A stretch of DNA of 64,000 nt from a virus (taxonomy: Duplodnaviria; Heunggongvirae; Uroviricota; Caudoviricetes): positions 59,632 to 123,631 of the IMG/VR virus record IMGVR_UViG_3300042991_000725; one strand, 5' to 3'. This document shows positions 21,702-38,095 of the stretch, piece after piece (position 1 is the first letter of the stretch; every line of letters begins with the position of its first letter). The notes under the pieces are model-generated. The model was given only the letters and a program-made list of their open reading frames with translations. It searched no databases and was not told the DNA's origin. The position numbers were made by a program, and so were the translations under genes.

Positions 21702-22109
21702 TCATTCTTGGTTTTTGAGAAGATCAAACAAGGCAGAAACGCAAACTTTTTCATAATCTGCCCAAGTAGAATCGAGGACTTTGATATAATCTTCCAAAGT
21801 AGGATAGCGAATTTTTCCATACTCCGCCCAAGCAGTTCTGTCAACTTTGTTGTACTCTGCCATAGCAGAATCGCAAATTTTGGAATACTTTGCCCAAGCA
21901 GGACCGAGGACTTTGTTATATTCTGCAAAATTCTCCGGACTCAAAAATTTCACGCAAAACAAGACATCCAAGTCCGCCTTCTTTGCCTTCTCCCAATTGG
22001 CCCTTGTGAATTTTATGCCATTCGGGAAAATCTCTTTGAACAAAGCGGTTTGCTGTCCACAGGCTTTTTCCGCTTCCAGCATTTCAACGGTGATCTTTGT
22101 TACTTTCAT
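21702..22109 (-). CDS. tandem-family paralog 3
   Basis: MKVTKITVEMLEAEK...ALFDLLKNQE; 135 aa. Confidence 0.6.
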   Translation of the reverse strand: MKVTKITVEMLEAEKACGQQTALFKEIFPNGIKFTRANWEKAKKADLDVLFCVKFLSPENFAEYNKVLGPAWAKYSKICDSAMAEYNKVDRTAWAEYGKIRYPTLEDYIKVLDSTWADYEKVCVSALFDLLKNQE

Positions 22110-22134
22110 GAGAGTCCCCTTTTAATGTAAAAGA

Positions 22135-22509
22135 TCATTCTTGGTTTTTGAGAAGATCAAACAATGCAATATCGCGGACTTTCCCATACACATCTCGAGC
22201 AGAACCGAGAGTTTTGATATATTCTGTCCAAGCAGGGCCGCAAGCTTTGGAATACTTTGCCCAAGCAAGTTCGCGGATTTTGTTATGTTCTGTCCGAGCA
22301 GAATCGCGAACTTTGATATAATCTGCCAAATTCTCCGGGCTCAAAAATTCCACGCAAAACAAGATATCCAACTCCGCATTCTTTGCCTTCTTCCAATTGG
22401 CCTTTGTGAATTTTGCGCCATCTGGGAAAAGTTCTTTGAACAAAGCGACTTGCTCCTTACAGGCTTTTCCCGTCTTCAGCATTTTGGCGGTGATCTTTGT
22501 TACTTTCAT
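22135..22509 (-). CDS. tandem-family paralog 2
   Basis: MKVTKITAKMLKTGK...ALFDLLKNQE; 124 aa. Confidence 0.6.
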   Translation of the reverse strand: MKVTKITAKMLKTGKACKEQVALFKELFPDGAKFTKANWKKAKNAELDILFCVEFLSPENLADYIKVRDSARTEHNKIRELAWAKYSKACGPAWTEYIKTLGSARDVYGKVRDIALFDLLKNQE

Positions 22510-22534
22510 TTAAATTCCCTTTCAGTGTAAAAGA

Positions 22535-23014
22535 TTATTTTTGGTTTTCGAGGAGGGCAAACAAGGCAGAATCGCGAACTTTTTCATACTCTGTCTGAGC
22601 AGAATCGCGAACTTTGATCTGCTCTGCCCAAGTAGCTCTGCAAATTTTGTCGTACTTTCTGAAACGACTCTCTGACGAATAAGGGATTGAAACGTACTCC
22701 GCCCAAGTAGCTCTGGAAATTTTGTTGCGCTTTATCCGAGCAAGTTCACAGATTTTGGCAACCTCCCAAGCAGAATCACAAATTTTAGTACATTCCGCCC
22801 AAGCAGAGCCGTCGATTTTGTTATATTTTGCCAAATTCTCCGGGCTCAAAAATTTCATGCAAAATAAGACATCTAAGCCTGCCCTTTTCGCTTTCTCCCA
22901 ATTATCCCTTGTGAATTTTGCACCATCTGGAAACATCTTCCTGAACAAAGCGGTTTGTTTTTTACAGGCTTTTCCCGCCTTTAACATTTTAATAGTGATC
23001 TTTGTCATTTTCAT
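22535..23014 (-). CDS. tandem-family paralog 1
   Basis: MKMTKITIKMLKAGK...ALFALLENQK; 159 aa. Confidence 0.6.
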   Translation of the reverse strand: MKMTKITIKMLKAGKACKKQTALFRKMFPDGAKFTRDNWEKAKRAGLDVLFCMKFLSPENLAKYNKIDGSAWAECTKICDSAWEVAKICELARIKRNKISRATWAEYVSIPYSSESRFRKYDKICRATWAEQIKVRDSAQTEYEKVRDSALFALLENQK

Positions 23015-25010: not shown

Positions 25011-25442
25011 TTATTCGCCCTGTTCTGCACACGATGAGCCAACGCCTTTGAAATATCTCTCTGGCGGATAAGGGACTTCGTATCCGGTACAGTCCCAGCC
25101 TAACTTTCTCCAAGCATTGTTTTCCACAATTGTCTCCGCCTGGACGACCGCTTTTTTGATGCGATCCACATCCCCCGGTTGAGCGGAGCAACAGACCGCG
25201 ATTTCCCCGCTCGGATGGATATGAAACGACACCTTTTTTCCATCAACTCCGGACGAAGACATCCAAAGGTAGAACTCGGTCGCGACCTCCGCGATCTTTC
25301 GCAACTCCGCCAGCTTCTTCAAATCACCTTCTGTATCCACTTCTGAAAATCTGTCAACATAAATCTCTACAGAAGGACTTTCCCCACACCATTGTGCTAA
25401 AGTGCAAATCTCCCCTGCCTTATTCTTCAAATTTACTATCAT
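25011..25442 (-). CDS. hypothetical protein (tandem paralog A)
   Basis: 143 aa; GGAGG SD; paralogous to 25542..25922 (NKAG.ICTLAQWCGE.PS.EI...GIAVCCSAQPG..DRIKKAV.QAE.IV.NN.WR). Confidence 0.45.
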   Translation of the reverse strand: MIVNLKNKAGEICTLAQWCGESPSVEIYVDRFSEVDTEGDLKKLAELRKIAEVATEFYLWMSSSGVDGKKVSFHIHPSGEIAVCCSAQPGDVDRIKKAVVQAETIVENNAWRKLGWDCTGYEVPYPPERYFKGVGSSCAEQGE

Positions 25443-25541
25443 TGTAATCCTCCTTAAAAAGATGAATAAAGAATTGAAACATCCGGGAAAAGCTCTTTAA
25501 ACAAAGCGGCTTGCTCCTTCTCTGAAACACCTCCCTGACGG

Positions 25542-25922
25542 CTAAAGGGTCGGAACTTCGTATTCGGTAGAATCCCAACACCAAGCCCTCCAAACATTGT
25601 TTTTCACAATTGCCTCCGCCTGAATGACCGCTTTTTTGATGCGATCCTTCTCTCCCGGTTGAGCGGAGCAACAGACCGCGATTCCCCCACTTGAATGGAT
25701 GCTCAATTTCACCTTTTTTTCGTCGACTCCGCACGAAGTTTCCCACAATTCGAAACCGATGGCTATTTGTGCGATCTTTTGCAACTCTGCCAACTTTATC
25801 ATGTCTTCTATCGGATTTGTTTCCGAAAATCTGGCTGCGTTAATCTCGATAGAAGGTCTTTCTCCACACCATTGTGCTAAAGTGCAAATCCTTCCTGCCT
25901 TATTCCTCAAAGTCACCATCAT
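25542..25922 (-). CDS. hypothetical protein (tandem paralog B)
   Basis: Start at internal ATGATG (25922) with GGAGG SD; ~126 aa; tandem ~530-bp duplication including downstream sequence. Confidence 0.45.
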   Translation of the reverse strand: MMVTLRNKAGRICTLAQWCGERPSIEINAARFSETNPIEDMIKLAELQKIAQIAIGFELWETSCGVDEKKVKLSIHSSGGIAVCCSAQPGEKDRIKKAVIQAEAIVKNNVWRAWCWDSTEYEVPTL

Positions 25923-26244
25923 CGCGTTCCTCCTTAAAGTCCGGTTTGTCCATGCCGACTTCTTCCCATGTCTGGGGGGAGCTTGATTCACAAAGGAAAG
26001 CGTAATCCTCTCCCTCCTTGTCGTAGCCATTATATCGGCAACAGACTTCTACATAGTTCCCGAAGTCATGGGGAAAAGTCTTCATGCAAAGTTTCGCCGT
26101 TCCGACTTCCGGCCCTAACTTCTTCCGGATTGCTTTAATAAATGCCCTACATTCAATTCTCGACTTCCGCACATAGTCTTCTTCTCCTACTTGCACACAA
26201 TCTTCCCCGTATGGGGCTGAACCAATATTTACAAAATCCATCAT
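25900..26244 (-). CDS. hypothetical acidic protein
   Basis: 114-aa ORF. Confidence 0.35.
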   Translation of the reverse strand: MMDFVNIGSAPYGEDCVQVGEEDYVRKSRIECRAFIKAIRKKLGPEVGTAKLCMKTFPHDFGNYVEVCCRYNGYDKEGEDYAFLCESSSPQTWEEVGMDKPDFKEERDDGDFEE

Positions 26245-27965: not shown

Positions 27966-28127
27966 TGTTCTTCCTTTGACAAAGGTCGTTTTTATCCAAA
28001 ATACCCTGAAAAGACCCGGGATTCGGCGATTTTTTCCGAATCTTTCCAGGATACTTTGAATCTCTCTGGAATCCCCTATCTTCCCTCTTATAACCGGGAT
28101 AGGGCAAAACTTCTTTAATGGCCGGGA

Positions 28128-28502
28128 TCATTCCTTCATTCCGTCCATGATTTCTACATACTCGAAAGCCGTCATGCCTTTAACGGCTTTCGCATAATCC
28201 CCGCAAATATCCGGGGAGAAATTAATCTTGTCTCCCATAACGGAAGAATGTCCCGCTTTACAATAAAGACAAGACCTTGTAGCCCCGGAGGCTGTTCTAT
28301 GCTCTTGAAAGAATGAATGGACACACTTTTTACAGCTTTTCATGGATTTCGCTTCGACTTCTTGTGTCGATTCGCGGAGGAGTTTGATCTCTGCTTCCTG
28401 CTCCGTCCCCTTCTCCGCTTCCCTTATTTTGGTTAATTCGGCAAGGCGTTTGATCAGTTCCAGGGGAATCAAATCCATGTCATTCCCTTTCGAAAATTGC
28501 AT
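28128..28502 (-). CDS. hypothetical protein
   Basis: 124 aa; lies in the GC-elevated island 27.7-29.7 kb. Confidence 0.4.
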   Translation of the reverse strand: MQFSKGNDMDLIPLELIKRLAELTKIREAEKGTEQEAEIKLLRESTQEVEAKSMKSCKKCVHSFFQEHRTASGATRSCLYCKAGHSSVMGDKINFSPDICGDYAKAVKGMTAFEYVEIMDGMKE

Positions 28503-28720
28503 CTTGCATTGTTATATTCTTCCGCTTCTTTCATATCCTTTTGATACTTAATCCAAACAACACAATCCGAACAATACTTTTCGCCCGCTTCGGGGCAATT
28601 CATGCAACGCCTTTCAAAAACTTTCAAGGCAATTGCATATCTTCTCATTTCCGTTTTCAATTCTCTGGTGAAATTCTTTTGGATATCCATTCTATTGCCT
28701 TTCCTGGAAAATAATGGCAT
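28469..28720 (-). CDS. zinc-ribbon protein
   Basis: 83 aa; CMNCPEAGEKYCSDC. Confidence 0.35.
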   Translation of the reverse strand: MPLFSRKGNRMDIQKNFTRELKTEMRRYAIALKVFERRCMNCPEAGEKYCSDCVVWIKYQKDMKEAEEYNNARCNFRKGMTWI

Positions 28721-28740
28721 TGTTGCAAAGACCTTGCCGA

Positions 28741-29049
28741 TTACAAAATAAATGCAAGGCGCTTCTTGTAAACTTCAAGCCGCCGTTCCAAATTCGCTTC
28801 TTCTTTGCGGATTTTCTCCGCGTAGAAGTCAATTCGTGCCGCCTTCCCCTCCGAAGATAGTTGCGCTTCGAGGGCGCTAATCTCCGCCTGGCATTGCTCC
28901 ATCTCTCTCCGGGAGTAGGCGGACACGGCCAAATCCGCCAAAAACTCCTTATGTCCTTTTTCTTCTCTTGCCAATTTCTTCGCACCTACTTCCCGCTCTA
29001 TGCCGACAATATCTATCGGCACGATCGCGCCAAAGCTTAAAATACCCAT
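28741..29049 (-). CDS. hypothetical protein (MGILSF-family paralog)
   Basis: Start at internal Met (MGILSFGAIVPIDIV...) matching the N-terminus of 29134..29436. Confidence 0.4.
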   Translation of the reverse strand: MGILSFGAIVPIDIVGIEREVGAKKLAREEKGHKEFLADLAVSAYSRREMEQCQAEISALEAQLSSEGKAARIDFYAEKIRKEEANLERRLEVYKKRLAFIL

Positions 29050-29133
29050 GAGACCCCCTTTCCGGTTAAGGTCATTAAACGACAACAAAAAAAGCCCCCT
29101 CCTGTATTAGCGAGGGGGGAAATTTTGGTGCTG

Positions 29134-29436
29134 TTAACTTTTCTTTTCGGCCGGGATCATGGCCGCAAGATACGCGGCGTATTCCTCGTCTAGCGAAGCG
29201 GCGGCAACCCCCGCGTTGGCGGCCGCCAATGTCGCGACAAGTGATATGGCCAAATTTTGGCAGGTGGGAAAATCGCCCTTCCCGTATGCCTCTCTGATGC
29301 GCTTCTCGACGCCAATCACGGCGTCACGATAGCTTTTCGCGGAGGCCAAGGCCCTTCCCGCCGTCCGCCGTGCAACCTCTTTATCCGACACGATGCCCGA
29401 TTCCACATTCACGCTGGCAAAACTCAGAATTCCCAT
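29134..29436 (-). CDS. hypothetical Ala-rich protein (MGILSF-family paralog)
   Basis: 100 aa; MGILSFASVNVESGIV... Confidence 0.4.
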   Translation of the reverse strand: MGILSFASVNVESGIVSDKEVARRTAGRALASAKSYRDAVIGVEKRIREAYGKGDFPTCQNLAISLVATLAAANAGVAAASLDEEYAAYLAAMIPAEKKS

Positions 29437-29439
29437 GAC

Positions 29440-29720
29440 AGCCTACCTTTCCGGGGATCTCTCCCCTGACTCTCCCCTATTCCCGCGGTATTGCGGGATT
29501 ACAGGGCACTACAGACAATAGTCTCTTCGTCTCACAGCGCCGACACTCCCACATCGGCCCCTCTCCCCTCATCCCCTTGCAACGTACAACTTCCCGCACA
29601 TTTCTATCACATACCGGGCACCTCGCATTGGAGATGACATCTCCGTTCTTCATTTTACCTTCCCGGGGATCTCTCCCCTTCATTCTCCTGTTCCCCGCGG
29701 CATGCGGGGTTGTATTCTTT
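29440..29720. repeat. two copies of a ~60-bp GC-rich element with a hairpin
   Basis: CCGGGGATCTCTCCCCT...TTCCCGCGGTATTGCGGG at ~29445 and CCGGGGATCTCTCCCCT...TCCCCGCGGCATGCGGGG at ~29658; each ends in a CCCGCGG-loop-CCGCGGG hairpin. Confidence 0.6.
29477..29683 (-). CDS. zinc-ribbon protein
   Basis: 68 aa; CPVCDR...CRRCE; flanked on both sides by copies of a GC-rich hairpin element. Confidence 0.35.
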   Translation of the reverse strand: MKGRDPREGKMKNGDVISNARCPVCDRNVREVVRCKGMRGEGPMWECRRCETKRLLSVVPCNPAIPRE

Positions 29721-30001
29721 CTTTCGCTGTCAATGATTATACCGGCTCCTCCCCCGGATTACAAGGCCTTTTTTTATTTTCATGTCGCTGTAACGTGCTT
29801 GTTGATAGTAGGTTATGACAATTCCGAAAATAGTCCATAAATTATTTCGATCTCATTGTAACCCGTTGATTGACACAAGGTTATGAGCATTTTGAATGTT
29901 GGAAGGGGGCGAAAGACAGCTTGCCATTTTCTATTTTCCGTTTTTTCGCACGTGCATATGTTGTTATACAGCAAGAGTTTACGATTTGATATGGCGTTCC
30001 T

Positions 30002-30036
30002 GGGACTATCGCCCTGGAGGGGACTATCGCCCTGGA
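30002..30036. repeat. direct repeat 2 x 17 bp (GGGACTATCGCCCTGGA), period 18
   Basis: Seen directly; followed by long G-runs (GGGGGGCGGGAGGGGCGC at 30050-30070 and GGGGGG/GGGGGGGGG at 30090-30140). Confidence 0.7.
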
Positions 30037-30497
30037 TTGTCACCACGGGGGGCGGGAGGGGCGCAATGCAATTGATAATGATTCTTGATAAGGTCTTGGG
30101 GGGTATTTCGATTTTGAGGGGGGAATGTGGGGAGAGAGGGGGGGGGTGGTCCTCCCTCAACATTTTCGATTTGCTCATTGCAACGCCGAATCTATCTGAT
30201 TATTGAGGGAAAGTGATGGGACATCTAATACATGTAGTGATAGAGTAATTGATCATATCACTTAAAATATTAAGAATCTATTTGTTTGGTCTTCTCTCAA
30301 CTCCAAGCCCTCAAGCATCGTAACATTGAAATTGTTAGTGTGCAACAAGCCTGTTAGTTTCTGGGAAAATACCGGACCCCCATCCCACCTTGTGCAACGC
30401 CTAATCCTTGGATAAATAGTCTGCGAAGCCGCCGGATCCTAACAATTATAGGCACTCATATATACTATGCCAACATTTTATAGACGAAGCGGCCACC

Positions 30498-30540
30498 CTG
30501 TCCAAAGACATACTGTCCAAAGACACACTGTCTAAGATGG
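30498..30540 (+). promoter_or_regulatory. three 15-bp-period iteron/operator-like direct repeats overlapping a start codon
   Basis: CTGTCCAAAGACA (30498), CTGTCCAAAGACA (30513), CTGTCTAAGATGG (30528). Confidence 0.45.
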
Positions 30541-30734
30541 GGGAATGTACTATTGGCTCTTTTTGCCATTTTTGCCAATGGGCAGCACCATTATTATATA
30601 GCGTGTTATATCATCTTTTGCAACGAAAACTATTTTATTTTCCCAACAGCAAATGGCGGCCTTTTCTATCTATATATATGTTGACAAATGGGCGAAAGAA
30701 GCGGAATAAGCGGAAGAAACGTTATGAGGACTTT

Positions 30735-30968
30735 ATGACTACCCTATCTACGTCTGTTATAGTAGTAGCGACTAGGCAGAATCAGGTAACTGGCAGACTT
30801 TATGGTAAATCGCATATAATGGTGGGCGACCGTACTGCTTGCAAAATTGATTTGCGCAGGGGCTATTGGAATATAAAATATGAAAAAGACATGGCGTGTA
30901 ATTGTAAAATATGCAACGACACTATTAAAGAAGTGAAAGGAGAATCAAATGCCCAAGATTCTTGGTAA
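30735..30968 (+). CDS. hypothetical protein
   Basis: Shorter version of ORF 30537..30968 starting at ATG 30735 with GAGGA SD; C-terminal CNCKIC. Confidence 0.3.
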   Translation: MTTLSTSVIVVATRQNQVTGRLYGKSHIMVGDRTACKIDLRRGYWNIKYEKDMACNCKICNDTIKEVKGESNAQDSW

Positions 30969-31059
30969 ATGCGGCAAGGCTATTGGCAAGCGGATTTGTA
31001 AGAAGTTCAAGCGGCTTTCGCGTTGTCCGAATAAGAATTGTAAGGGAAAGATGGCTTAA
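30949..31059 (+). CDS. small basic Cys-containing peptide (36 aa)
   Basis: MPKILGKCGKAIGKRICKKFKRLSRCPNKNCKGKMA; AAAGGAG SD; its 3' part shares a ~22-bp motif with 34528-34549. Confidence 0.3.
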   Translation: MPKILGKCGKAIGKRICKKFKRLSRCPNKNCKGKMA

Positions 31060-31083
31060 TAAAAATATTTTGAGGATTTATAT

Positions 31084-31401
31084 ATGATTAAGAAATTTGT
31101 TACGCTGATCGAAATTTTATTTATTGTTTCTATTTTTTTAATTATCACAAGTATGATTCTTAGAGGAATTGCAAAAAGTCTAGACAAACCTCCTTTGGGA
31201 ACCATAACGCTGTGTACAAACGAAGGATCTATTTCGCAAGAATATAAAGTAGACGCCCCATTGATAATCAGCCCTGACGGAACAGTCAATTTCAAGTCTC
31301 GCGGGAAAACAATCATTTTTAAGGGTAGTTATATTTATACAGAATACAAGGAAAATAACACTAACAAAGAAAGGGACAAAGGCCATGATCAGAGTCATTG
31401 A
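31084..31401 (+). CDS. membrane protein with prepilin-like N-terminal segment
   Basis: N-terminus MIKKFVTLIEILFIVSIFLIITSM resembles a class-III (type IV pilin) signal/hydrophobic stem (xTLIE), but lacks the canonical Gly at -1. Confidence 0.4.
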   Translation: MIKKFVTLIEILFIVSIFLIITSMILRGIAKSLDKPPLGTITLCTNEGSISQEYKVDAPLIISPDGTVNFKSRGKTIIFKGSYIYTEYKENNTNKERDKGHDQSH

Positions 31402-31510
31402 AATGATCGTATTGATGTCATGTATTGGAGTTTCAACAGCTTTTATTTATTATGCAGCGAAGTCAACCAATAACTCCAAGGAGGACAAAGGCCATGATCA
31501 GAGTCATTGA
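31385..31510 (+). CDS. small single-TM peptide (41 aa), tandem copy 1
   Basis: MIRVIEMIVLMSCIGVSTAFIYYAAKSTNNSKEDKGHDQSH; AAGGAGG SD lies inside the 3' end of the previous gene. Confidence 0.45.
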   Translation: MIRVIEMIVLMSCIGVSTAFIYYAAKSTNNSKEDKGHDQSH

Positions 31511-31604
31511 AATGGTTATATTGATGTCATGTATCGGGGTCGCGTCAGCTTTTATTTATTGTGCTATAAAGTCAAACAATAGCTCTAAGGAGAACAAAGA
31601 ATGA
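31494..31604 (+). CDS. small single-TM peptide (36 aa), tandem copy 2
   Basis: MIRVIEMVILMSCIGVASAFIYCAIKSNNSSKENKE; its stop overlaps the SPFH gene start (ATGA). Confidence 0.45.
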   Translation: MIRVIEMVILMSCIGVASAFIYCAIKSNNSSKENKE

Positions 31605-32416
31605 ATGATACTCGAAAGATCATTGGAATCAGTTGTGCATTTGTTGGTATCGTTGCCCTTCTTGTCGTTATTTTCTGCTCATGGGGTACGATTGACGCCG
31701 GACATAGGGGCGTTGTCCTAAGTATGGGCAAAGTCACGGGAGAGATAAAAGGCGAAGGATTTTATACAAAGATCCCGTGGATAGTTTCTGTTGTTGAAGC
31801 GGATATCAGGATGCAAAAAGAGCAGGTCGAAACAGAAGGTGCGAGTAAAGACTTGCAAACAGTCAAGGCTGATATTGCTTTGAATCTATCAATTGAACCT
31901 TCTAAATGCGCAGATCTTTATCAGTCAATTGGGAGGGACTATTTGGATAAATTTGTGGCCCCGTCAATGCAAGAGTCCATAAAGGCCGTTCTCGCTCAAT
32001 TTACTGCAGAAGAGCTTATTTCAAAAAGGGAGTGTGTGCGCGAATCAATGGGGAATCTTTTATCTTCCAAGCTGGCCCCTGTTGGTATCAAAACCTCTGC
32101 ACTAAATATTGTGGATCTTGATTTTAGTCCATCGTTCAATAGCGCGATTGAGGCCAAAGTCACAGCGGAACAAAACGCGCTTGCCGCAAAAAACTTATTG
32201 GCACAGAAGGAATTTGAGGCACAGCAGCTTATTGCTACGGCTAAGGGCAAGGCCGAAGCCATGCAAATTGAAAGTGCGGCGTTGGCAAAAAATCCACAGG
32301 TACTTCAACTCCGTGCTCTTGAAAAGTGGAACGGCGTTCTACCGCATGTTATGAGCGGCGATGTGGTTCCATTTATTGACATCACAGAAAAACAAGATAA
32401 TGTTATTAAGCGGTAA
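31601..32416 (+). CDS. SPFH/band-7 (prohibitin/HflC-like) membrane protein
   Basis: N-terminal TM helix, then GHRGVVLSMGKV...EGFYTKIPWI...DIRMQ SPFH signature, and a C-terminal Ala/Gln-rich coiled coil. Confidence 0.8.
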   Translation: MNDTRKIIGISCAFVGIVALLVVIFCSWGTIDAGHRGVVLSMGKVTGEIKGEGFYTKIPWIVSVVEADIRMQKEQVETEGASKDLQTVKADIALNLSIEPSKCADLYQSIGRDYLDKFVAPSMQESIKAVLAQFTAEELISKRECVRESMGNLLSSKLAPVGIKTSALNIVDLDFSPSFNSAIEAKVTAEQNALAAKNLLAQKEFEAQQLIATAKGKAEAMQIESAALAKNPQVLQLRALEKWNGVLPHVMSGDVVPFIDITEKQDNVIKR

Positions 32417-32553
32417 TTCGCAAGAGGGAATTTTGATTAAAAATCGTGGAGTGCCGCCAAACAATGGAGATTTCGCCTGTATTCTTGTTCTTATAGGGGC
32501 GCATCTCCTAATTATAGCCATAGCTTCCGTATTATATTGGGGGTTTATGTAAA

Positions 32554-32997
32554 ATGGACAAATGTTCGAATCCAAAATGCAAAAATGGATTTGTAAAGAC
32601 GTGTGTACTTGTGCATTCAGGCGGCAATTATTATGTTAAATGCGCTATTTGTAATTCTCAAAAAGAAGATGCTGATAGGAAGTTGTGTGAAAAATGTTCC
32701 CATTTCAACAAATGTGCTATGTGTATAAATCAAAGCAATCATAATGAAATTTTGTCTCGCAGCTCGTCTAAAAGCGAATATATAACAGAGGCTTGGCCAC
32801 GCTGTAGAATTGATGAATATGAAACTCTTGATCATTTGGCCTTTAAGTCCCCCCATGGAAATATTTATCAAATTAATTTTACACACCCGTTTGGTCGTTA
32901 TGGAGATTATTTGTTTGTGAAATTTAATAAAACAGGAAATTTTGCAAATGGGGCTGTAGAAAGTGTTGATATGCTAAAGATAAAGCAAATTATTTGA
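32554..32997 (+). CDS. Cys-rich hypothetical protein
   Basis: 147 aa; N-terminal CxxC x4 (CSNPKC, CAIC, CEKC, CAMC). Confidence 0.45.
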   Translation: MDKCSNPKCKNGFVKTCVLVHSGGNYYVKCAICNSQKEDADRKLCEKCSHFNKCAMCINQSNHNEILSRSSSKSEYITEAWPRCRIDEYETLDHLAFKSPHGNIYQINFTHPFGRYGDYLFVKFNKTGNFANGAVESVDMLKIKQII

Positions 32998-33021
32998 ATT
33001 TATTCTAAGGGCTGTTAAAGA

Positions 33022-34230
33022 ATGAAGTATTATAATGGAAATGACGCACTTGTAATAAAAAGTTGGTGCAATAATCCAGAAGATTCGGCCCTTGATCAAG
33101 CCAAGAATTTAGCCAAATTGCCGTTTGCTTATGGCAGTATTTGTTTGATGCCAGATACACATGCTGGTTACGGAATGCCCATAGGTGGAGTTCTCGCCAC
33201 CAAAGATGTTGTAATTCCTAATGCTGTTGGGGTAGATGTGGGATGTGGAATGTGTGTAGCAAAAACAAATTTACATGATTTATCAACGGATACTATCAAA
33301 CGTATTGTGGGAGAAATTAGAAAGGTTGTTCCGCTTGGATTTAACCATCACAAAGAGCCTCAACCAAAATCGCTGATGCCAGAAGGAGACTTGTATTATC
33401 AAGAATACTACAATAATTATTTTGATAAAATGTTTATTTGTGAAAGAAATCATGACAAGGCAAGAGAGTCTCTTGGAACGCTGGGCGGAGGCAATCATTT
33501 TATTGAGATACAAAAAGACAGCAGAGGGATTGTATGGATTATGATTCATTCTGGATCTCGTAATTTAGGCAAACAGGTTGCCGATCATTACAATAGGTTG
33601 GCGATAGAATTAAATGAATCATATTATAGCAATGTTCCAAAAGAATGGCAATTGGCTTTTTTGCCTATAAATTTTGAAGAAGGCGAAAAATATATACAGG
33701 AAATGGATTATTGCGTCAAGTACGCCAAGGCTAATAGAAAGTTGATGATGACAAGAATAATGCAGTGTTTTGTTGATATTATTCCTGATTGCTTATTTTC
33801 TTCTATTGACGGGAACACTGTTCTTGATGTTGTTCATAATTATGCTAGAATGGAAAATCATTTCGGACACAATTTAATGGTTCATCGAAAAGGTGCTACT
33901 TCTGCAAGAAAAGACGAATATGGGATTATACCGGGATCACAAGGGACTGCGAGCTATATAGTCAAGGGGCTTGGCAATCCAGATAGTTTCATGTCTTGTT
34001 CCCATGGCGCTGGCCGTAAAATGGGCAGGAAAGAAGCCAAGCGAACCCTTAATTTGGATTCAGAAAAGAAGAAGCTTGACGATTTGGGAATTGTCCACGG
34101 CATACGCAGCGTTGACGATTTAGAAGAGGCTTGTAGTGCATATAAAGATATTGATGTGGTTATGGAAGAGCAAAAAGATCTTGTGGAAATCGTTGAGCGT
34201 CTTAAACCTCTTGGCCTTATTAAGGGATAA
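33022..34230 (+). CDS. rtcB: RNA-splicing ligase RtcB (3'-phosphate/5'-OH RNA ligase)
   Basis: 402 aa; CLMPDTHAGYGMPIGGV, GGGNHFIEIQ, IHSGSRNLGKQ and CSHGAGRKM match the RtcB metal/GTP-binding motifs. Confidence 0.85.
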   Translation: MKYYNGNDALVIKSWCNNPEDSALDQAKNLAKLPFAYGSICLMPDTHAGYGMPIGGVLATKDVVIPNAVGVDVGCGMCVAKTNLHDLSTDTIKRIVGEIRKVVPLGFNHHKEPQPKSLMPEGDLYYQEYYNNYFDKMFICERNHDKARESLGTLGGGNHFIEIQKDSRGIVWIMIHSGSRNLGKQVADHYNRLAIELNESYYSNVPKEWQLAFLPINFEEGEKYIQEMDYCVKYAKANRKLMMTRIMQCFVDIIPDCLFSSIDGNTVLDVVHNYARMENHFGHNLMVHRKGATSARKDEYGIIPGSQGTASYIVKGLGNPDSFMSCSHGAGRKMGRKEAKRTLNLDSEKKKLDDLGIVHGIRSVDDLEEACSAYKDIDVVMEEQKDLVEIVERLKPLGLIKG

Positions 34231-34233
34231 ATA

Positions 34234-34473
34234 ATGAAAGCCTACGTTTCGCTTATTATTCTTTTAGACGACGACTACAGTGAGGCCACAAAAAAAATGA
34301 CAGTAGAGCAGAACAGTAGGATTTATGAATCAGAAGCTTGTGTTTTTGAAGATGACGAAATTGAAACTATGATAAAGACTATGCAAAAAATGGCGTCTGA
34401 TGCCTTGAATGTAGCAAAAGAAGAGGCTGGATTTAGGGAGCAAGAAAGATTAAATCATCTTGGGTTGATATAA
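34234..34473 (+). CDS. hypothetical acidic protein
   Basis: 79-aa ORF starting 4 nt after the rtcB stop. Confidence 0.4.
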   Translation: MKAYVSLIILLDDDYSEATKKMTVEQNSRIYESEACVFEDDEIETMIKTMQKMASDALNVAKEEAGFREQERLNHLGLI

Positions 34474-34600
34474 AATATTATCGGTATGCGGATTTATAAG
34501 AAGTCCAAGCGTAATATGCGGCGCTCGGATAAGAATTGCAAGGAAAAGAGCAAATGGAGCTTCTGTCTATGTCAATGATATGTGTTAAGGATAAGTCCCT

Positions 34601-35422
34601 TTGATGGTTATGGAGAATCCAAATAGCTTATCCACCAAATGTGTTTTCCGAGACGATGAATCTGGCATTTGGCTTTATCAGACCAATTGCATTGAATTTA
34701 TGGATATACTTGCTGCTAAATTCCCTGAAGGCAAGTTCGATATGATTTTTGCCGATCCGCCATATTTTTTATCTAACGGAGGGTTTACCTGCCACACGGG
34801 GAAGATGGTGGCGGTCAATAAGGGGGAATGGGATAAATCCAATGGACCGGAGATGAATCATAAATTTAATATGGAGTGGCTTTCAAGGTGCCAGAATGTT
34901 CTAAAACCAAATGGAACCTTATGGGTGTCTGGGACACACCATGTGATCCATTCTGTAGGTCATGCCATGCAACAACTGGGGATGAAAATCCTTAATAACA
35001 TTACTTGGTTGAAACCAAATCCGCCTCCGAACCTTTCTTGCCGCTATTTTACTCATTCTACGGAAACAATAATCTGGGCTGCGAAAACAGAAAAATCAAA
35101 GCATTGTTTCAATTATGGAGAAATGCGTGAAAGCAATAATGGCAAACAGATGAAATCCGTATGGTCTTTCTCTGTGCCTAACAAAAAGGAAAAGGAATTT
35201 GGGAAACATCCTACTCAAAAGCCGATTGCTCTCTTAGAAAGAATTATCCTATCATCAACGAGTGAAGGCAATTTAATCTTTGATCCTTTTGCAGGCAGTT
35301 CTACTACTGGTGTATCAGCAATACAAACACATCGTAAATTTGTAGGGACGGAACTTAAAACAGAATTTATCAATCTGTCTATTGCTCGATTAAAACATGC
35401 GATAGGTATCCGCGAAAGATAA
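34601..35422 (+). CDS. DNA N6-adenine/N4-cytosine methyltransferase (beta-class amino-MTase)
   Basis: DMIFADPPY (motif IV) precedes the C-terminal FDPFAGSSTTG (motif I), the beta-class order. Confidence 0.8.
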   Translation: MMVMENPNSLSTKCVFRDDESGIWLYQTNCIEFMDILAAKFPEGKFDMIFADPPYFLSNGGFTCHTGKMVAVNKGEWDKSNGPEMNHKFNMEWLSRCQNVLKPNGTLWVSGTHHVIHSVGHAMQQLGMKILNNITWLKPNPPPNLSCRYFTHSTETIIWAAKTEKSKHCFNYGEMRESNNGKQMKSVWSFSVPNKKEKEFGKHPTQKPIALLERIILSSTSEGNLIFDPFAGSSTTGVSAIQTHRKFVGTELKTEFINLSIARLKHAIGIRER

Positions 35423-35514
35423 CGCAATACCCAGGGATCAAGCATGATAATGCAGAACCACGACCCGTAGCTAATCAATGGATGTTACGACGATAGTAAA
35501 AGGAATGATTCATC

Positions 35515-36189
35515 ATGAACACTGGAAAAGGCAAGTCTATAATAACGAATTTTGGATGTGATAAGTCGTGTCATTATTGTATTTGGAAATATTCACAACT
35601 GAGGAATTACAAAACTACAATAGACAATACAGACTGGGAAAAGCTATCGAAGTTCATAAAGGGCTCGGATAGCATAAGTATTTCTGGTGGCGGCGACCCT
35701 CTTTATAATATTGACGGAAATTGGGCATGGTTCAAGGAGTTCTTTACCAGGGCTAAATCCTATCATGTCAAACTTCACACCGCAGTTATTTTGCCACAAG
35801 ACAAAAGTTTTTATTATGGTAGCTTTAATAAGATTGCACTGCATCTGAATTATAAAGAATTCAAACACAATCTTGACAGGGTTTTTTCTCTACATGAGAA
35901 TATTAGGCTAGTTTTCGTATTGTCGGAGAACGATTTGTCCAAGAACAGGGTAAGTGAGATATGCGAAATATGTGCTGATAAGTCTGTTCAGTTAAGTTTT
36001 AGAGAATTGTTTATCCCTGATAAGACAAAGTCTAGATTGCAGAGTGTGCTTGAAATTAATACGAAGGAAATAGTTAAGAGCAAATACAGTTCTTTCGCCA
36101 AATTTGTCGAACAGGCCGACTATAATATTTATTATATGCCAGACAATTCTATAAGAACAAAATTTTTGGAGAATGCCCATGCAATTTAA
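35515..36189 (+). CDS. QueE-like radical SAM protein (7-carboxy-7-deazaguanine synthase family, B. subtilis type)
   Basis: 224 aa; FGCDKSCHYC (cf. QueE GCDYSCSWC) and ISISGGGDPL (cf. VTISGGNP SAM-binding loop). Confidence 0.5.
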   Translation: MNTGKGKSIITNFGCDKSCHYCIWKYSQLRNYKTTIDNTDWEKLSKFIKGSDSISISGGGDPLYNIDGNWAWFKEFFTRAKSYHVKLHTAVILPQDKSFYYGSFNKIALHLNYKEFKHNLDRVFSLHENIRLVFVLSENDLSKNRVSEICEICADKSVQLSFRELFIPDKTKSRLQSVLEINTKEIVKSKYSSFAKFVEQADYNIYYMPDNSIRTKFLENAHAI

Positions 36190-37165
36190 GAATGCTTTTT
36201 ATCTCCCAAGCGGTAGGGTATTTTTGCTTGATTGTGACGGATTTCCTGTTGAATGTACAGAAATGAGAGATGTTACTGTCGGTGGGAAGGACCATGAAGA
36301 AGTACGAACATCTAACGACCCGCATGTGATTTGGAATCACTTAAAGCCATATAATGAAAAATGGCTGCTTACAGTATCTACGCAGAAGGGCTGCCCACAT
36401 AAATGCAAGTTTTGTGATGTCGCAGGGCTTGGCTTTAGCGGCAATTTAACTGTTGAACAAATCTTGGAGCAAGTTTCTTTCATCCTGGATGCTTCTCCGT
36501 ATGTGCAAAATTGCTCTAAAGTCAAAATAGGATTTGCTAGAATGGGAGAGCCGTCACATAATTTGACAAATGTTCTTAATGCCATGAAGATGCTACCATC
36601 AATCTCTTCTAGCAAAAGTAGAGTTTTCACATGGCTGCCATGCTTTAATAGTATTCTGCCCAAGAAAACAATAGATGGACGGTCAGCATACGATGTGATA
36701 GAAAGAGTTTTAGCTATGAAGGATTGGTATAATGGATTCCTCCACTTCCAAATCTCGGCAAATTCTACAGACGAGAATATTAGGAAGCAGCTTTTCGGTG
36801 GTGCCGATGTCTTGGGCTTGGAAGAAATTGTCAAATATATCAATGGAAAGTCGATTACTAATAGGACAATTACGCTGAATTTTATAGTAATAGATGGAGT
36901 CCCTATTGATGTAAAATATCTAAAGAGTATTGGCGTTAATGGCAGCAAATTTAACATTAAGCTGATCCCATTAAACAATACGGAGCGCGGGATCATCAAT
37001 AACTTGAAGACATATGCCAATTATACCAATTATGATAAACTGATTGATTTGGGAGATGAAATACGGAAGGAAGGCATTCCTGTTGTCGTAGATGCTATAG
37101 CAAAATGTGAAGAGGCCGGGTTATGTTGCGGACAGTTGGCTCATATATATGCGAAAAATAATTAA
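36173..37165 (+). CDS. RlmN/Cfr-family radical SAM RNA methyltransferase
   Basis: STQKGCPHKCKFCDVAGLGFSGNLTVEQILEQV parallels RlmN [33 protein letters not shown]; C-terminal CCGQLA parallels the RlmN ACGQLAG (second catalytic Cys). Confidence 0.7.
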   Translation: MPMQFKNAFYLPSGRVFLLDCDGFPVECTEMRDVTVGGKDHEEVRTSNDPHVIWNHLKPYNEKWLLTVSTQKGCPHKCKFCDVAGLGFSGNLTVEQILEQVSFILDASPYVQNCSKVKIGFARMGEPSHNLTNVLNAMKMLPSISSSKSRVFTWLPCFNSILPKKTIDGRSAYDVIERVLAMKDWYNGFLHFQISANSTDENIRKQLFGGADVLGLEEIVKYINGKSITNRTITLNFIVIDGVPIDVKYLKSIGVNGSKFNIKLIPLNNTERGIINNLKTYANYTNYDKLIDLGDEIRKEGIPVVVDAIAKCEEAGLCCGQLAHIYAKNN

Positions 37166-37174
37166 TTTTTTCTA

Positions 37175-37202
37175 TTGACAAAATCTGGTTTAGGTGTATA
37201 CT
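37175..37202 (+). promoter_or_regulatory. sigma70-type promoter (TTGACA-16-TATACT)
   Basis: TTGACA at 37175-37180 and TATACT at 37197-37202. Confidence 0.55.
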
Positions 37203-37208
37203 AATAAT

Positions 37209-37409
37209 AGCTTCTTACTCTTTTATAGGGGTGCGCTTTCCGTGAGATTGAAGCAATCCATATTTACCTATCTCGATATGGCCATTACGTCCCCCGGACT
37301 AGGGGAACGAACATGGTCAGTCCATCGAAATTTGGGTAGGAGAGTGATGGTGGGCTGAGGAAAACGGGAAAACCGAATTCCTCAACTCACCCACGAAAGT
37401 GGGTTTTTT
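37209..37409 (+). ncRNA. candidate ~200-nt structured small RNA / tRNA-operon leader
   Basis: No ORF; bounded by the promoter above and an intrinsic terminator. Internal hairpin CCCCGGACTAGGGG and long-range pairing CCTATCTCGATATGG / CCATCGA...GGTAGG. Confidence 0.4.
37386..37409 (+). terminator. rho-independent terminator
   Basis: CACCCACGAAAGTGGG + TTTTTTG. Confidence 0.6.
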
Positions 37410-37428
37410 GTTTGTAGTAAAAAATCGT

Positions 37429-37504
37429 TCTGGGGTAGCTCAGCTGGTAGAGCGACGGACTGTTAATCCGTTTGTCGCAGGTTCAAATCCTGCTCCCAGA
37501 GCCA
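37429..37504 (+). tRNA. tRNA-Asn (GUU)
   Basis: Acceptor TCTGGGG/TCCCAGA, anticodon loop CU-GUU-AA, T-arm GGTTCAAATCC, CCA encoded. Confidence 0.8.
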
Positions 37505-37511
37505 AAATTAT

Positions 37512-37583
37512 CAGGGTGTGGGCCAATGGCTGGCCACCAGTCTTGGGCACTGGGTCATGCAGGTTCGACTCCTGTCACCCTGA
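37512..37583 (+). tRNA. tRNA-Pro (UGG)
   Basis: Acceptor CAGGGTG/CACCCTG, anticodon stem CCAGT/ACTGG, loop CU-UGG-GC. Confidence 0.75.
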
Positions 37584-37595
37584 TTTAATATGTGC

Positions 37596-37666
37596 GTCCC
37601 TGTGATCTAATGGCAGGATACCAGATTTTCAGTCTGGGTGCAAGGGTTCGATCCCCTTCAGGGATA
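37596..37666 (+). tRNA. tRNA-Glu (UUC)
   Basis: Acceptor GTCCCTG/CAGGGAT, anticodon loop UU-UUC-AG; D-arm TCTAATGGCAGGA homologous to bacterial tRNA-Glu. Confidence 0.75.
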
Positions 37667-37684
37667 TTTGTTCTTTGAAAATGT

Positions 37685-37758
37685 AGCCCATTAACTCAAC
37701 TGGCTAGAGTGCCACTTTTACACGGTGGAAGTTGAAGGCTCGAATCCTTCATGGGCTA
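37685..37758 (+). tRNA. tRNA-Val (UAC)
   Basis: Acceptor AGCCCAT/ATGGGCT, anticodon loop UU-UAC-AC, T-arm GAAGGCTCGAATCCTTC. Confidence 0.7.
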
Positions 37759-37764
37759 TTTAAT

Positions 37765-37838
37765 GCTCGGTTAGTGTAGTGACAACACGCGACACTGTCG
37801 ATGTCGAGTCAGGAGTTTAATTCTCCTACCGAGTGCCA
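37765..37838 (+). tRNA. tRNA-Asp (GUC)
   Basis: Anticodon stem CGACA/TGTCG, loop CU-GUC-GA; CCA encoded. Confidence 0.8.
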
Positions 37839-37865
37839 TTTTTTTCGGGCTATGTGCCCACCAAT

Positions 37866-37936
37866 GGGGACATAACATAATGGGAATGTGTTACCCTTGC
37901 AAGGTAAAAATGTGGTTTCGACTACCACTGTCTCCA
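37866..37936 (+). tRNA. tRNA-Ala (UGC)
   Basis: Acceptor GGGGACA/TGTCTCC with G3:U70 identity pair; anticodon loop CU-UGC-AA. Confidence 0.8.
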
Positions 37937-38073: not shown

Positions 38074-38095
38074 CTTTATAAAACTAGGAGCCCAT

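What the first reader, a model, noticed from the sequence alone, without database searches (positions are those of the whole stretch)
29440..30540. Divergent non-coding hub with hairpin repeats, G-runs and iteron-like repeats
Between the leftward and rightward gene blocks lies ~1.1 kb with almost no coding potential. It contains two copies of a ~60-bp GC-rich hairpin element flanking a tiny zinc-ribbon gene, a 2 x 17-bp direct repeat, and long G-runs (GGGGGGCGGGAGGGG and G6-9 tracts; potential G-quadruplex or slippage sites, striking in an AT-rich genome). Three 15-bp-period repeats (CTGTCCAAAGACA) abut the first rightward start codon. This is a candidate replication origin and/or early-late transcriptional switch region.
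Basis: seen in the sequence. Interest (0 to 1): 0.5.

Follow-up and report, generated by a model that had tools for sequence, protein, structure and literature searches.

The report
Divergent control region of a huge phage
This is a real, repeat-rich gap of about 1 kb between two oppositely transcribed gene blocks of an uncharacterised large phage; it reads best as an ordinary divergent promoter, leader and operator region, and the idea that it is also the replication origin is neither shown nor excluded.

Summary
The window is part of a phage genome of at least 154 kb (32 tRNAs, RtcB, RNR, about 38% GC) with no close relatives.

- **Hairpin elements.** The two "hairpin elements" are duplicated 5' leaders on the minus strand. 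Each has hairpin 1, then a GGGGA-GAGA-TCCCC hairpin, then a CCGGRAAGG ribosome site, and sits in front of two small leftward orphan genes.
- **Core.** A central stretch of about 38% GC (29736-29905) holds back-to-back promoter-like sites.
- **15-bp repeats.** These are 12-bp palindromes (TGTC-N4-GACA). They overlap promoter hexamers and do not abut a credible start codon.
- **G-runs.** They form the G-richest 100 nt of the window and one of its only two canonical G4 motifs. They lie in a GC-rich island of 51.5% GC.
- **Classical origin features.** None is met: no phased iteron array, no AT-rich unwinding element, no DnaA box, no initiator gene nearby.
- **Skew test.** A codon-third-position test, controlled for gene orientation, puts a strand-bias switch at 29-32 kb (permutation p about 0.01-0.02). 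The signal disappears at four-fold degenerate sites.
- **Conservation.** It cannot be tested, because all three flanking genes searched have no homologue and no syntenic relative was found.

Verdict: an ordinary divergent regulatory hub. An origin role stays a minority possibility.

The parts
29095..29120 (-). Intrinsic terminator (CCCCCCUCGC...GGAGGGGG followed by CUUUUUUUG) that ends the leftward two-gene unit
   Evidence: Fold z = -3.12; the sequence was read directly.
29134..29436 (-). 100-aa orphan gene (MGILSF...), the GC-richest gene of the window at 57.8% GC
   Evidence: Called by the Logan gene caller. Only itself was found among 5.8 billion proteins. GC content. It is a weak paralogue of the next gene, 28741-29049.
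29442..29498 (-). Leader copy 1: hairpin 1 (29481-29498), purine-rich spacer, GNRA-type hairpin 2 GGGGA-GAGA-TCCCC (29453-29466), and ribosome site CCGGAAAGGTAGG
   Evidence: (z = -2.72).
29477..29653 (-). 58-aa zinc-ribbon orphan gene (CxxC...CxxC). It contains the only canonical G4 motif on the minus strand (29548-29576).
   Evidence: no homologue among 1.84 billion representative proteins.
29654..29709 (-). Leader copy 2: hairpin 1 (29693-29709), spacer, hairpin 2 (29665-29678), and ribosome site CCGGGAAGGTA
   Evidence: (z = -2.89). One compensatory pair (U-A to C-G) separates the two copies.
29736..29781 (-). Leftward promoter-like site TTGTAA-17-TATAAT (29764..29736) with an upstream A-tract (29769-29781)
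   Evidence: 10/12 match; sequence.
29786..29902 (+). Two imperfect direct repeats of about 45 nt (rA 29786-29833, rB 29855-29902). Each carries a rightward promoter-like site: TTGATA-18-GAAAAT (29802-29831) and TTGACA-18-GAATGT (29870-29899).
   Evidence: (alignment). The fine-scale GC-skew sign change falls here.
30002..30036 (+). Perfect tandem repeat, 2 x 17 nt with an 18-nt period (GGGACTATCGCCCTGGA)
30047..30146 (+). G-run cluster (G6, G4, G6, G6, G4, G9). The G4 motif is at 30118-30146. On the minus strand it reads as a tract with 49% C, 7-8% G and almost no structure.
30066..30206 (+). Candidate 46-aa ORF with a strong ribosome site (GGGAGGGG, 6 nt upstream of the ATG). It contains the G9 tract. 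Whether it is real is unproven.
   Evidence: best local coding score 0.36 bits per codon; no family match.
30139..30158 (+). G/C hairpin followed 4 nt later by a U-rich stretch; a weak terminator-like element
   Evidence: z = -1.62.
30439..30504 (.). Second promoter cluster. Leftward: TTGGCA-17-TATAAT (30473..30445, 11/12) and TGGACA-18-TAAAAT (30504..30475, 10/12). Rightward: CTAACA-16-TATACT (30439-30466, 9/12).
30498..30584 (.). Operator-like 12-bp palindromes TGYC-N4-GRCA at 30499-30510, 30514-30525 and 30573-30584, plus a degenerate copy at 30528-30540. The first overlaps the TGGACA -35 hexamer. The last overlaps a TTGCCA -35-like hexamer.
   Evidence: 9 sites in 64 kb, 3 of them here; 2.55 expected for the whole window.
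30735..30968 (+). First credible rightward gene (77 aa, orphan)

Best explanation
The region is a composite, divergent transcription-control region at the junction of a leftward block of about 36 kb of mostly small genes and a rightward auxiliary block (SPFH protein, RtcB, methylase, tRNA arrays).

Shown by sequence:
(a) The two 'hairpin elements' are duplicated 5' leader and translation-initiation cassettes on the minus strand. The order is GC hairpin, purine spacer, GGGGA-GAGA-TCCCC hairpin, CCGGRAAGG Shine-Dalgarno sequence, ATG. They sit in front of the zinc-ribbon gene and the 100-aa gene. The Shine-Dalgarno part recurs before the next paralogous gene. An intrinsic terminator closes the two-gene unit.
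(b) All of this lies in a GC-rich island (28741-30165) that is compositionally foreign to the 38% GC genome.

Inferred:
(c) The core at 29736-29905 (about 38% GC) holds back-to-back promoters that fire leftward into the leaders and rightward through the 18-bp repeats and G-runs.
(d) A second promoter cluster at 30439-30600 is controlled by a dimeric DNA-binding protein that recognises the TGYC-N4-GRCA palindromes overlapping the -35 hexamers.
(e) The leader hairpins act at the RNA level, in mRNA stabilisation or in control or enhancement of translation initiation.
(f) The G-runs are part of a G-rich transcribed leader or small ORF, not a replication element.
For: Gene map and orientation switch.

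Leaders:
- Repeat D1 and the unique 17-mer.
- Alignment and folds with z = -2.7 and -2.9.
- All 22 aligned stem positions pair, with one compensatory change.
- CCGGRAAGG occurs only three times in 64 kb, each time directly before a consecutive leftward ATG, and two of the genes share the N-terminus MGILSF.
- The terminator has z = -3.1.
- Significant RNA structure appears only on the minus strand at 29430-29654.

Promoters:
- 12 sites against 5.7 +/- 2.3 expected in 28500-31500.
- 3 of 37 strong sites fall in 1.6% of the window.
- rA and rB each carry TTGAYA-18-GAAnnT.

Operators: TGTC-N4-GACA occurs only here, and 3 of the 9 TGYC-N4-GRCA sites lie within 86 nt.

GC island.

No coding signal or family match in 29690-30735.

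No known RNA family.
Against: - All promoter and operator calls are consensus matches. The host and its sigma factors are unknown, and a sigma-70 region-2-like gene lies about 8 kb left of the window (faint Pfam hit).
- No cognate DNA-binding protein is identified. The neighbours have no homologues, and the AlphaFold models are low-confidence (pLDDT 59-60).
- Conservation cannot be tested.
- About 900 nt between the core promoters and the first credible rightward gene is long for a leader and is only partly accounted for.
- The function of the G-run cluster and of the 18-bp repeat is not explained by anything tested.
- The GC3 change-point result hints at something beyond transcription.
Confidence: 0.55

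Rival explanations
1. Bidirectional replication origin, probably primed by transcription. Rightward transcripts from the core promoters would form a persistent R-loop or hybrid G-quadruplex over the G-run cluster (G-rich non-template strand). This would open the adjacent AT-richer stretch (30166-30300) and prime leading-strand synthesis. This reading is not mutually exclusive with the regulatory one.
For: - The cumulative GC-skew minimum of the window is at about 30 kb. The fine-scale sign change is at about 29800.
- The G-richest (+ strand, 30046-30145) and C-richest (+ strand, 29526-29625) 100-nt windows of the 64 kb face away from each other around the core.
- Both canonical G4 motifs of the window lie here, one on each strand.
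- After controlling for gene orientation, GC3 skew shows a switch best placed at 29-32 kb. The gain in log-likelihood is 9.3-9.7. Gene-permutation p is 0.02, and 0.008 with 18.7 kb of extra sequence.
- The two blocks oriented against the presumed fork direction have low GC3 skew: B3 0.005 and B0 0.06, against 0.12-0.16 elsewhere.
- Promoter-plus-downstream-element origins and G-rich R-loop priming are known from T4 oriF/oriG (PMC3016281) and from mitochondrial CSB II (PMC3488243, PMC4176368).
Against: - The GC-skew switch disappears at four-fold degenerate sites (log-likelihood gain below 1; B2 has the lowest value). The GC3 signal therefore probably reflects amino-acid or codon choice in one block, B3.
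- The raw skew follows gene orientation, with an equal switch at about 51 kb.
- No DnaA boxes. No AT-rich element more extreme than the genome average.
- The repeats have fewer than three copies and are not helically phased.
- No replication-initiation gene was found among the ORFs scanned in the window. SSB and RNR flank the other hub.
- The likelihood plateau spans 28.5-40 kb. Only 82 kb of at least 154 kb could be examined.
Confidence: 0.2
2. The G-run part is coding. A small gene (46 aa, 30066-30206, or the 107-aa version from 29883) would be translated from the strong GGGAGGGG ribosome site. The G9 tract would be a slippage-prone contingency site that switches its reading frame.
For: - A canonical Shine-Dalgarno sequence lies 6 nt before the ATG at 30066.
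- This ORF has the best local coding score, 0.36 bits per codon.
- The Logan gene caller called the 107-aa ORF.
- G9 is the only G-run longer than 7 in 64 kb.
- Hypermutable homopolymer tracts that act as contingency loci have been reported in phages (10.1101/2025.10.21.683753).
Against: - The coding score collapses over the G-rich half.
- An equally long ORF lies on the opposite strand (121 aa), as expected for purine-rich sequence.
- No Pfam match.
- The two assemblies carry the same G9, so no length variation has been seen.
Confidence: 0.15
3. Rho-dependent attenuator. Transcripts from the strong leftward promoter-like sites at 30445-30504 would cross the G-run region as an extremely C-rich, G-poor, unstructured RNA that serves as a rut site. 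They would then be terminated before reaching the zinc-ribbon unit unless antiterminated.
For: - The site at 30473..30445 scores 11/12; only five sites in the window score 11/12 or higher.
- The minus-strand RNA of 30046-30145 has 49% C and 7-8% G.
- Its folding energy is only -3.9 to -7.5 kcal/mol per 100 nt.
- About 790 nt downstream of these promoters has no credible ORF.
Against: - The promoter call is consensus only.
- The host and its Rho status are unknown.
- The composition is equally explained by G-richness of a rightward transcript.
- No nut-like or antiterminator element is recognisable.
Confidence: 0.1
4. The gap encodes a structured non-coding RNA, or it marks the physical genome end or packaging site.
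For: - It is long and non-coding, with many short repeats.
- In some large phages the early promoters and small takeover genes sit next to the terminal repeats (own knowledge, not tested here).
Against: - No Rfam match up to E = 5.
- No segment of 29700-30450 folds better than shuffled sequence on either strand.
- Nothing in the sequence marks a terminus, and no reads were available.
Confidence: 0.05

Closest known systems
Divergent promoter-operator regions of phages (lambda OR with PR/PRM; anti-CRISPR promoters controlled by Aca repressors). Comparison from own knowledge.
   Same: Back-to-back promoter-like sites in a non-coding gap between oppositely oriented gene blocks. Tandem short palindromic sites overlap the -35 hexamers. 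Small genes lie immediately downstream.
   Different: Site spacing is 15 bp centre to centre, with 12-bp palindromes. No repressor gene is recognisable. There are two separate promoter clusters about 600 nt apart. Nothing has been shown experimentally, and there are no relatives in which to check conservation.
T4 oriF/oriG-type origins: a promoter plus a downstream unwinding element, primed by an R-loop (PMC3016281)
   Same: Promoter-like sites are followed downstream by a compositionally unusual stretch and then an AT-richer stretch. The location is in a region of early or auxiliary genes.
   Different: The T4 downstream element is A+T-rich, whereas here the element after the promoters is extremely G-rich. 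No R-loop evidence exists. The skew support vanishes at four-fold sites.
Mitochondrial CSB II (G6AG8) transcription-termination and primer-formation site (PMC3488243, PMC4176368)
   Same: A G-run cluster on the non-template strand lies downstream of a promoter. GGGGAGAGAGGGGGGGGG resembles the CSB II G-tracts, and a canonical G4 motif is present.
   Different: The biological system is unrelated, and no evidence of termination or priming exists here. This is an analogy only.
Iteron-type origins (lambda ori, theta plasmids). Comparison from own knowledge.
   Same: Short direct repeats lie in a non-coding region at a skew switch.
   Different: Only 2 to 2.6 copies are present, at 15 and 18 bp periods that are not helically phased. 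There is no adjacent AT-rich unwinding element and no initiator gene nearby. The repeats are palindromes that overlap promoter hexamers.
Repeated inter-cistronic leader hairpins of phage early operons (for example the RNase III sites between T7 early genes; 5' stabiliser hairpins). Comparison from own knowledge.
   Same: A conserved stem-loop module is repeated upstream of successive small early genes, immediately 5' of the ribosome site.
   Different: The stems are only 5-6 bp, too short for RNase III. One of them has a GNRA-type tetraloop. No processing data exist.

Membership tests
Iteron-type replication origin | Array of at least 3-4 direct repeats of about 17-22 bp in helical phase | tested here: not met
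   The 18-bp-period repeat has 1.9 copies and the 15-bp-period repeat has 2.6 copies. The 15-bp units are palindromes.
Iteron-type replication origin | Adjacent AT-rich DNA unwinding element | tested here: not met
   The hub is GC-richer than the genome. Its lowest 100-nt windows are 30-33% GC, against a genome mean of 39% with many windows at 20-30%.
Iteron-type replication origin | Initiator (Rep/O-like) or other replication gene next to the repeats | tested here: not met
   The flanking genes have no homologues and no Pfam or PHROG match. No initiator, helicase, primase or polymerase hit was found among the ORFs scanned in the window. Orphan proteins could still hide one.
DnaA-dependent origin | Cluster of DnaA boxes (TTATCCACA) | tested here: not met
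   No box with at most 1 mismatch lies between 28001 and 31941.
Replication origin (any type) | Strand-composition switch that is independent of gene orientation | tested here: inconclusive
   The GC3 change-point is at 29-32 kb, p = 0.008-0.02. It is absent for GC at four-fold degenerate sites, and the TA signal is only weak and broad. The result rests mainly on one block, B3.
Transcription-primed (R-loop or G4) origin | Promoter upstream of a tract that is G-rich on the non-template strand | tested here: met
   Promoter-like sites at 29802-29831 and 29870-29899. G-run cluster at 30047-30146 and G4 motif at 30118-30146. The promoter evidence is consensus level only.
Transcription-primed (R-loop or G4) origin | Persistent RNA-DNA hybrid used as a primer | not testable with these tools
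   This needs in vitro transcription with RNase H or S9.6 assays, or replication-intermediate mapping.
Divergent promoter-operator control region | Oppositely oriented promoters within one non-coding gap | tested here: met
   29764..29736 (-) against 29802-29831 (+); 30473..30445 (-) against 30439-30466 (+). These are consensus matches, enriched 12 against 5.7 +/- 2.3.
Divergent promoter-operator control region | Palindromic operator sites that overlap core promoter elements | tested here: met
   TGTCCAAAGACA x 2 and TGCCAATGGGCA. Site 1 contains the TGGACA -35 hexamer, and the last site overlaps TTGCCA. Three of the 9 window sites lie within 86 nt.
Divergent promoter-operator control region | Cognate DNA-binding regulator encoded nearby | tested here: inconclusive
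   No HTH or RHH family hit. The AlphaFold models of the 77-aa and 100-aa proteins have pLDDT 59-60.
Canonical G-quadruplex motif | Four G3-or-longer tracts with loops of 1-7 nt | tested here: met
   30118-30146 (+) and 29548-29576 (-) are the only two in 64 kb. Actual folding was not tested.
Phase-variable homopolymer (contingency) locus | Long homopolymer tract whose length varies between genomes or reads | not testable with these tools
   A G9 tract is present. The two available assemblies are identical. No read data were available.
Rho-dependent terminator (rut site) | C-rich, G-poor, unstructured RNA of about 80 nt downstream of a promoter | tested here: inconclusive
   Composition and lack of structure are met on the minus strand. 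Leftward transcription across it and Rho dependence are unknown.
Known structured RNA families (Rfam 15) | Covariance-model match | tested here: not met
   No match reaches any gathering score in the hub. The best E-value for 29000-31200 is 0.45, at a bit score of 19 against a gathering threshold of 70.

The most novel reading that the evidence does not exclude
The hub is a bidirectional, transcription-primed origin of a huge phage. A cluster of G-runs on the non-template strand, rather than an AT-rich unwinding element, would trap the nascent transcript as an R-loop or hybrid G-quadruplex to make the primer. This would be a bacterial-virus counterpart of mitochondrial CSB II, embedded in a divergent early promoter region.
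Probability: 0.12. Interest if true: 0.65.

Novelty: new member of a known kind. Interest (0 to 1): 0.3.

Why it matters
If the regulatory reading is right, this is routine genome architecture in a poorly sampled large phage. It would be useful mainly for annotating transcription units: it gives a leader and ribosome-site cassette, candidate promoters and an operator motif.

It would matter more if the G-run cluster turned out to prime replication or to be a phase-variable switch. Origins of huge phages are almost unmapped, and a G-quadruplex or R-loop origin in a bacterial virus would link phage and mitochondrial priming mechanisms.

The analysis also shows that a raw GC-skew minimum at a divergent gene junction is not evidence of an origin. 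After correcting for gene orientation, the signal here is fragile.

Tried and rejected
**Comparative genomics gave nothing.**
- No blastn or megablast match in 50,697 phage records.
- The 100-aa, 77-aa and zinc-ribbon proteins have no homologue in 5.8 billion proteins or 1.84 billion representative proteins.
- IMG/VR loci found with the SPFH protein, RtcB and the 107-aa protein share only that single gene.
- A tblastx hit in L008 was spurious, inside a high-GC gene.
- The best SPFH homologue on a large (191-kb) contig, P0004 (73% identical), sits in a co-directional block with no hub.
- 63 metagenome loci found with RtcB include none that is syntenic, and blastn of the hub against them is empty.
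- The Logan contigs L003 and L004 are the same genome at 100% identity.

**DNA pattern scans.**
- The 22-mer of the leader has 0 hits in JGI metagenomes.
- The 17-mer has 3 IMG/VR hits, all inside an unrelated coding sequence.
- The 23-mer has 2 hits in Bacteroidales MAGs. Both lie in the N-terminus (KYLSGDLSPDE) of an anti-sigma-like gene next to an ECF sigma gene. I judged this a coding coincidence, because similarity ends after about 24 nt.

**Ideas tested and rejected.**
- The 15-bp x 9 array at 15083-15271 as a better iteron candidate. It is the coding sequence of a pentapeptide-repeat protein.
- A 215-nt tandem triplication suggested by the three CGTTGCAMW motifs. No alignment supports it.
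- The right arm as a decayed inverted copy of the left arm. The best local alignment is no better than shuffles.
- A structured ncRNA in 29700-30450. No z-score falls below -2.1.
- A shared specific promoter motif with other intergenic gaps. Only generic A/T-rich k-mers were found.
- GGGGGGTATTT shared with the second hub at 50879. I judged this within chance expectation.
- AlphaFold models of two neighbouring proteins were too uncertain to search with.
- Walking further along the genome was blocked, because only proteins of the window can be looked up.
Full report
**Context.** The window belongs to a large, uncharacterised phage.
- It carries 30-32 tRNA genes, RtcB, an RNA ligase, class I RNR and DNA methylases.
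- GC content is about 38%.
- It has no nucleotide match among 50,697 deposited phage genomes.
- The 100-aa protein next to the finding exists elsewhere only on a 154,404-bp JGI contig. It is also on Logan contigs that are 100% identical to the window.
- A codon-usage gene map gives four blocks: leftward genes from before position 1 to 29436; rightward genes and tRNAs from about 30735 to 41415; leftward genes 41496-50753; rightward genes from 51326 onward.
- Flanking Logan sequence shows that the leftward block starts about 6.8 kb left of the window, and that the last block continues at least 9.5 kb to the right.

**Observation.**
- The two copies of the hairpin element lie at 29444-29491 and 29656-29703. 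They share a 17-mer found nowhere else in 64 kb, against 0.03 expected.
- The 2 x 17-nt repeat is perfect.
- The G-runs make 30046-30145 the G-richest 100 nt of the window at 49% G. They give 7 runs of G4 or longer in 150 nt, while shuffles reach at most 4.
- The window contains only two canonical G4 motifs. Both are here: 30118-30146 on the + strand, and 29548-29576 on the - strand inside the zinc-ribbon gene.
- CTGTCCAAAGACA has two perfect copies and one degenerate copy.
- Coding potential is near zero from about 29690 to 30735. All frames of 30207-30735 are rich in stop codons.
- One statement is wrong. The ATG at 30537 has no ribosome site and no coding signal. The gene callers start the first rightward gene at 30735 or at about 30819.

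**The hairpin repeats.** Read on the minus strand, each copy is a 5' leader.
- The order is a 6-bp GC hairpin, a purine-rich spacer, a GGGGA-GAGA-TCCCC hairpin with a GNRA-type loop, then CCGGRAAGGTA and the ATG. The genes served are the zinc-ribbon gene (29653) and the 100-aa gene (29436).
- Both leaders fold better than shuffled sequence (z = -2.9 and -2.7).
- All 11 stem pairs are kept in both copies, with one U-A to C-G exchange. With only two sequences this has no statistical weight.
- CCGGRAAGG occurs only three times in the window, each time directly before the start of one of three consecutive leftward genes. The second and third genes both begin MGILSF and are weak paralogues.
- A clear intrinsic terminator (29120..29095, z = -3.1) follows the 100-aa gene.
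- The repeats are therefore products of local duplication of a leader and translation-start cassette, not origin elements.
- These genes sit in the GC-richest part of the window (28741-30165, 51.5% GC). The 100-aa gene is 57.8% GC, against 38.7 +/- 5.1% for all genes. This suggests an acquired cassette.

**The core and the right half.**
- The fine-scale GC skew changes sign at about 29800, inside a core of about 38% GC at 29736-29905.
- That core holds a leftward TTGTAA-17-TATAAT site preceded by an A-tract.
- 37 bp away it holds two imperfect 45-nt direct repeats. Each carries a rightward TTGAYA-18-GAAnnT site.
- Rightward transcripts from there would run through the 18-bp tandem repeat and the G-runs.
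- A 46-aa ORF (30066-30206) has a strong GGGAGGGG ribosome site and the best local coding score. That score collapses in the G-rich half, and the ORF matches no family.
- A second cluster lies at 30439-30600: two leftward sites (11/12 and 10/12) and one rightward site.
- The '15-bp repeats' are 12-bp palindromes, TGTC-N4-GACA. The exact form occurs only here. The relaxed form TGYC-N4-GRCA has 9 sites in 64 kb, three of them within 86 nt.
- The first palindrome contains the TGGACA -35 hexamer of a leftward site. The third overlaps a TTGCCA hexamer. That is operator-like, not iteron-like.
- Promoter-like sites are enriched in 28500-31500: 12 against 5.7 +/- 2.3. Three of the 37 window sites scoring at least 10/12 lie in the hub.
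- No part of 29700-30450 shows significant RNA structure on either strand, and no Rfam family matches.

**Origin hypothesis.**
- The classical features are not met. No DnaA box lies in 28001-31941. No AT-rich element more extreme than the genome background is present. The repeats have too few copies and are not phased. No replication gene lies nearby, and SSB and RNR flank the other divergent gap at about 51 kb.
- The raw cumulative skew minimum at about 30 kb coincides with the switch in gene orientation, and a second switch lies at about 51 kb.
- To separate the two effects I compared skew on the sense strand of each block. For GC at all third codon positions the values are B1 0.136, B2 0.125, B3 0.005 and B4 0.150.
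- A logistic model with an orientation term and a positional switch fits best with the switch at 29-32 kb. The log-likelihood gain is 9.3, with values above 6 from 28.5 to 40 kb, and gene-permutation p is 0.02.
- Adding 18.7 kb from flanking contigs keeps the maximum in place (p = 0.008). A second inverted block on the left also has low skew, 0.06, but it is small.
- The polarity is that of an origin: the + strand is G-rich to the right.
- At strictly four-fold degenerate sites, however, the GC signal disappears. The log-likelihood gain is below 1 and B2 has the lowest value. The TA signal is weak and broad.
- The GC3 effect therefore probably reflects amino-acid or codon choice in block B3. 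I rate the origin idea as possible but not supported (about 0.2).
- If it were an origin, the most coherent mechanism would be transcription priming. The layout would be a promoter, then a G-rich non-template tract, then an AT-richer stretch. That is analogous to T4 oriF/oriG (PMC3016281) and to mitochondrial CSB II (PMC3488243 and PMC4176368).

**Other readings.**
- On the minus strand the G-run region is 49% C and 7-8% G, with almost no structure. It would make a rut-like tract for transcripts from the strong leftward sites at 30445-30504.
- The G9 tract is the only G-run longer than 7 in the window and could be slippage-prone (compare).
- Neither idea can be tested without transcript or read data.

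**Conservation.** It cannot be assessed. All three flanking genes searched have no homologue. No syntenic locus was found in IMG/VR or in JGI metagenomes. Exact-pattern scans returned nothing, or coding coincidences.

**Verdict.** The best-supported interpretation is an ordinary composite divergent control region: duplicated leader cassettes, back-to-back promoters and palindromic operator-like sites, partly built from a GC-rich acquired cassette. The origin claim is not established. Interest is low to moderate.

Noticed in passing
window 14812-15429 (-); repeat array 15040-15290: A 15-bp-period array (GTTTGCACAGGAAAA, about 9-17 copies) looks like iterons. It is in fact the coding sequence of a 205-aa pentapeptide-repeat protein (Pfam PF00805, E = 1.8e-16).
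   Followed up: yes
window 20226-22632: Large tandem repeats with periods of 334-499 bp and 33/66-bp sub-repeats (75-87% identity) span several small leftward ORFs. This is a locally amplified gene family. Related copies lie at 25046-25938.
   Followed up: no
window 37429-41415, with 829-1863, 33022-34230 and 48463-48978: Twenty-nine tRNA genes in arrays sit with RtcB, an RNA ligase and a polynucleotide-kinase-like protein. Together these look like a tRNA supply and repair kit. An HNH gene (39736-40326) is inserted between the tRNA arrays.
   Followed up: partly
window 55982-64000 and L092 11194-21197: A long rightward cluster resembles nonulosonic or sialic-acid-type sugar biosynthesis. It includes NeuB, a CMP-sugar synthetase-like CTP_transf_3, a DegT aminotransferase, UDP-GlcNAc 2-epimerase, glycosyltransferases and PIG-L. 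That is unusual cargo for a phage.
   Followed up: no
window 50754-51550: A second divergent gap is AT-rich. It has an 85-nt polypurine AAAG-type array (50926-51010) and a perfect TTGACA-16-TATAAT site at 51477-51504, and it lies next to SSB and RNR. By classical criteria it is at least as good an origin candidate as the hub under study.
   Followed up: partly
window 31374-31599: A 109-bp tandem duplication (84% identity) creates two small paralogous membrane-peptide ORFs just upstream of the SPFH gene. It also breaks the Logan assembly at this point.
   Followed up: no
window 41496-50753 (block B3): Sense-strand GC skew at third codon positions is near zero (0.005) in this leftward block, against 0.12-0.15 in the other three blocks. 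The difference is absent at four-fold degenerate sites. The cause is unresolved: amino-acid usage, foreign origin or replication direction.
   Followed up: partly
window 29444-29480 and 29656-29700 (+ strand reading); L089 6706-6728: On the + strand both leader copies would translate as YL(S/P)GDLSP. This is the N-terminal motif of an anti-sigma-like protein in Bacteroidales MAGs, whose DNA matches 23 nt exactly. I judged it a coincidence arising from the palindromic hairpin.
   Followed up: yes
L091 7476-8012 (about 3.5-4.0 kb left of window position 1): A 178-aa ORF with a faint sigma-70 region-2 hit lies next to a RuvB-like AAA+ gene. A phage sigma factor would weaken promoter inferences that rely on the host sigma-70 consensus.
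   Followed up: no
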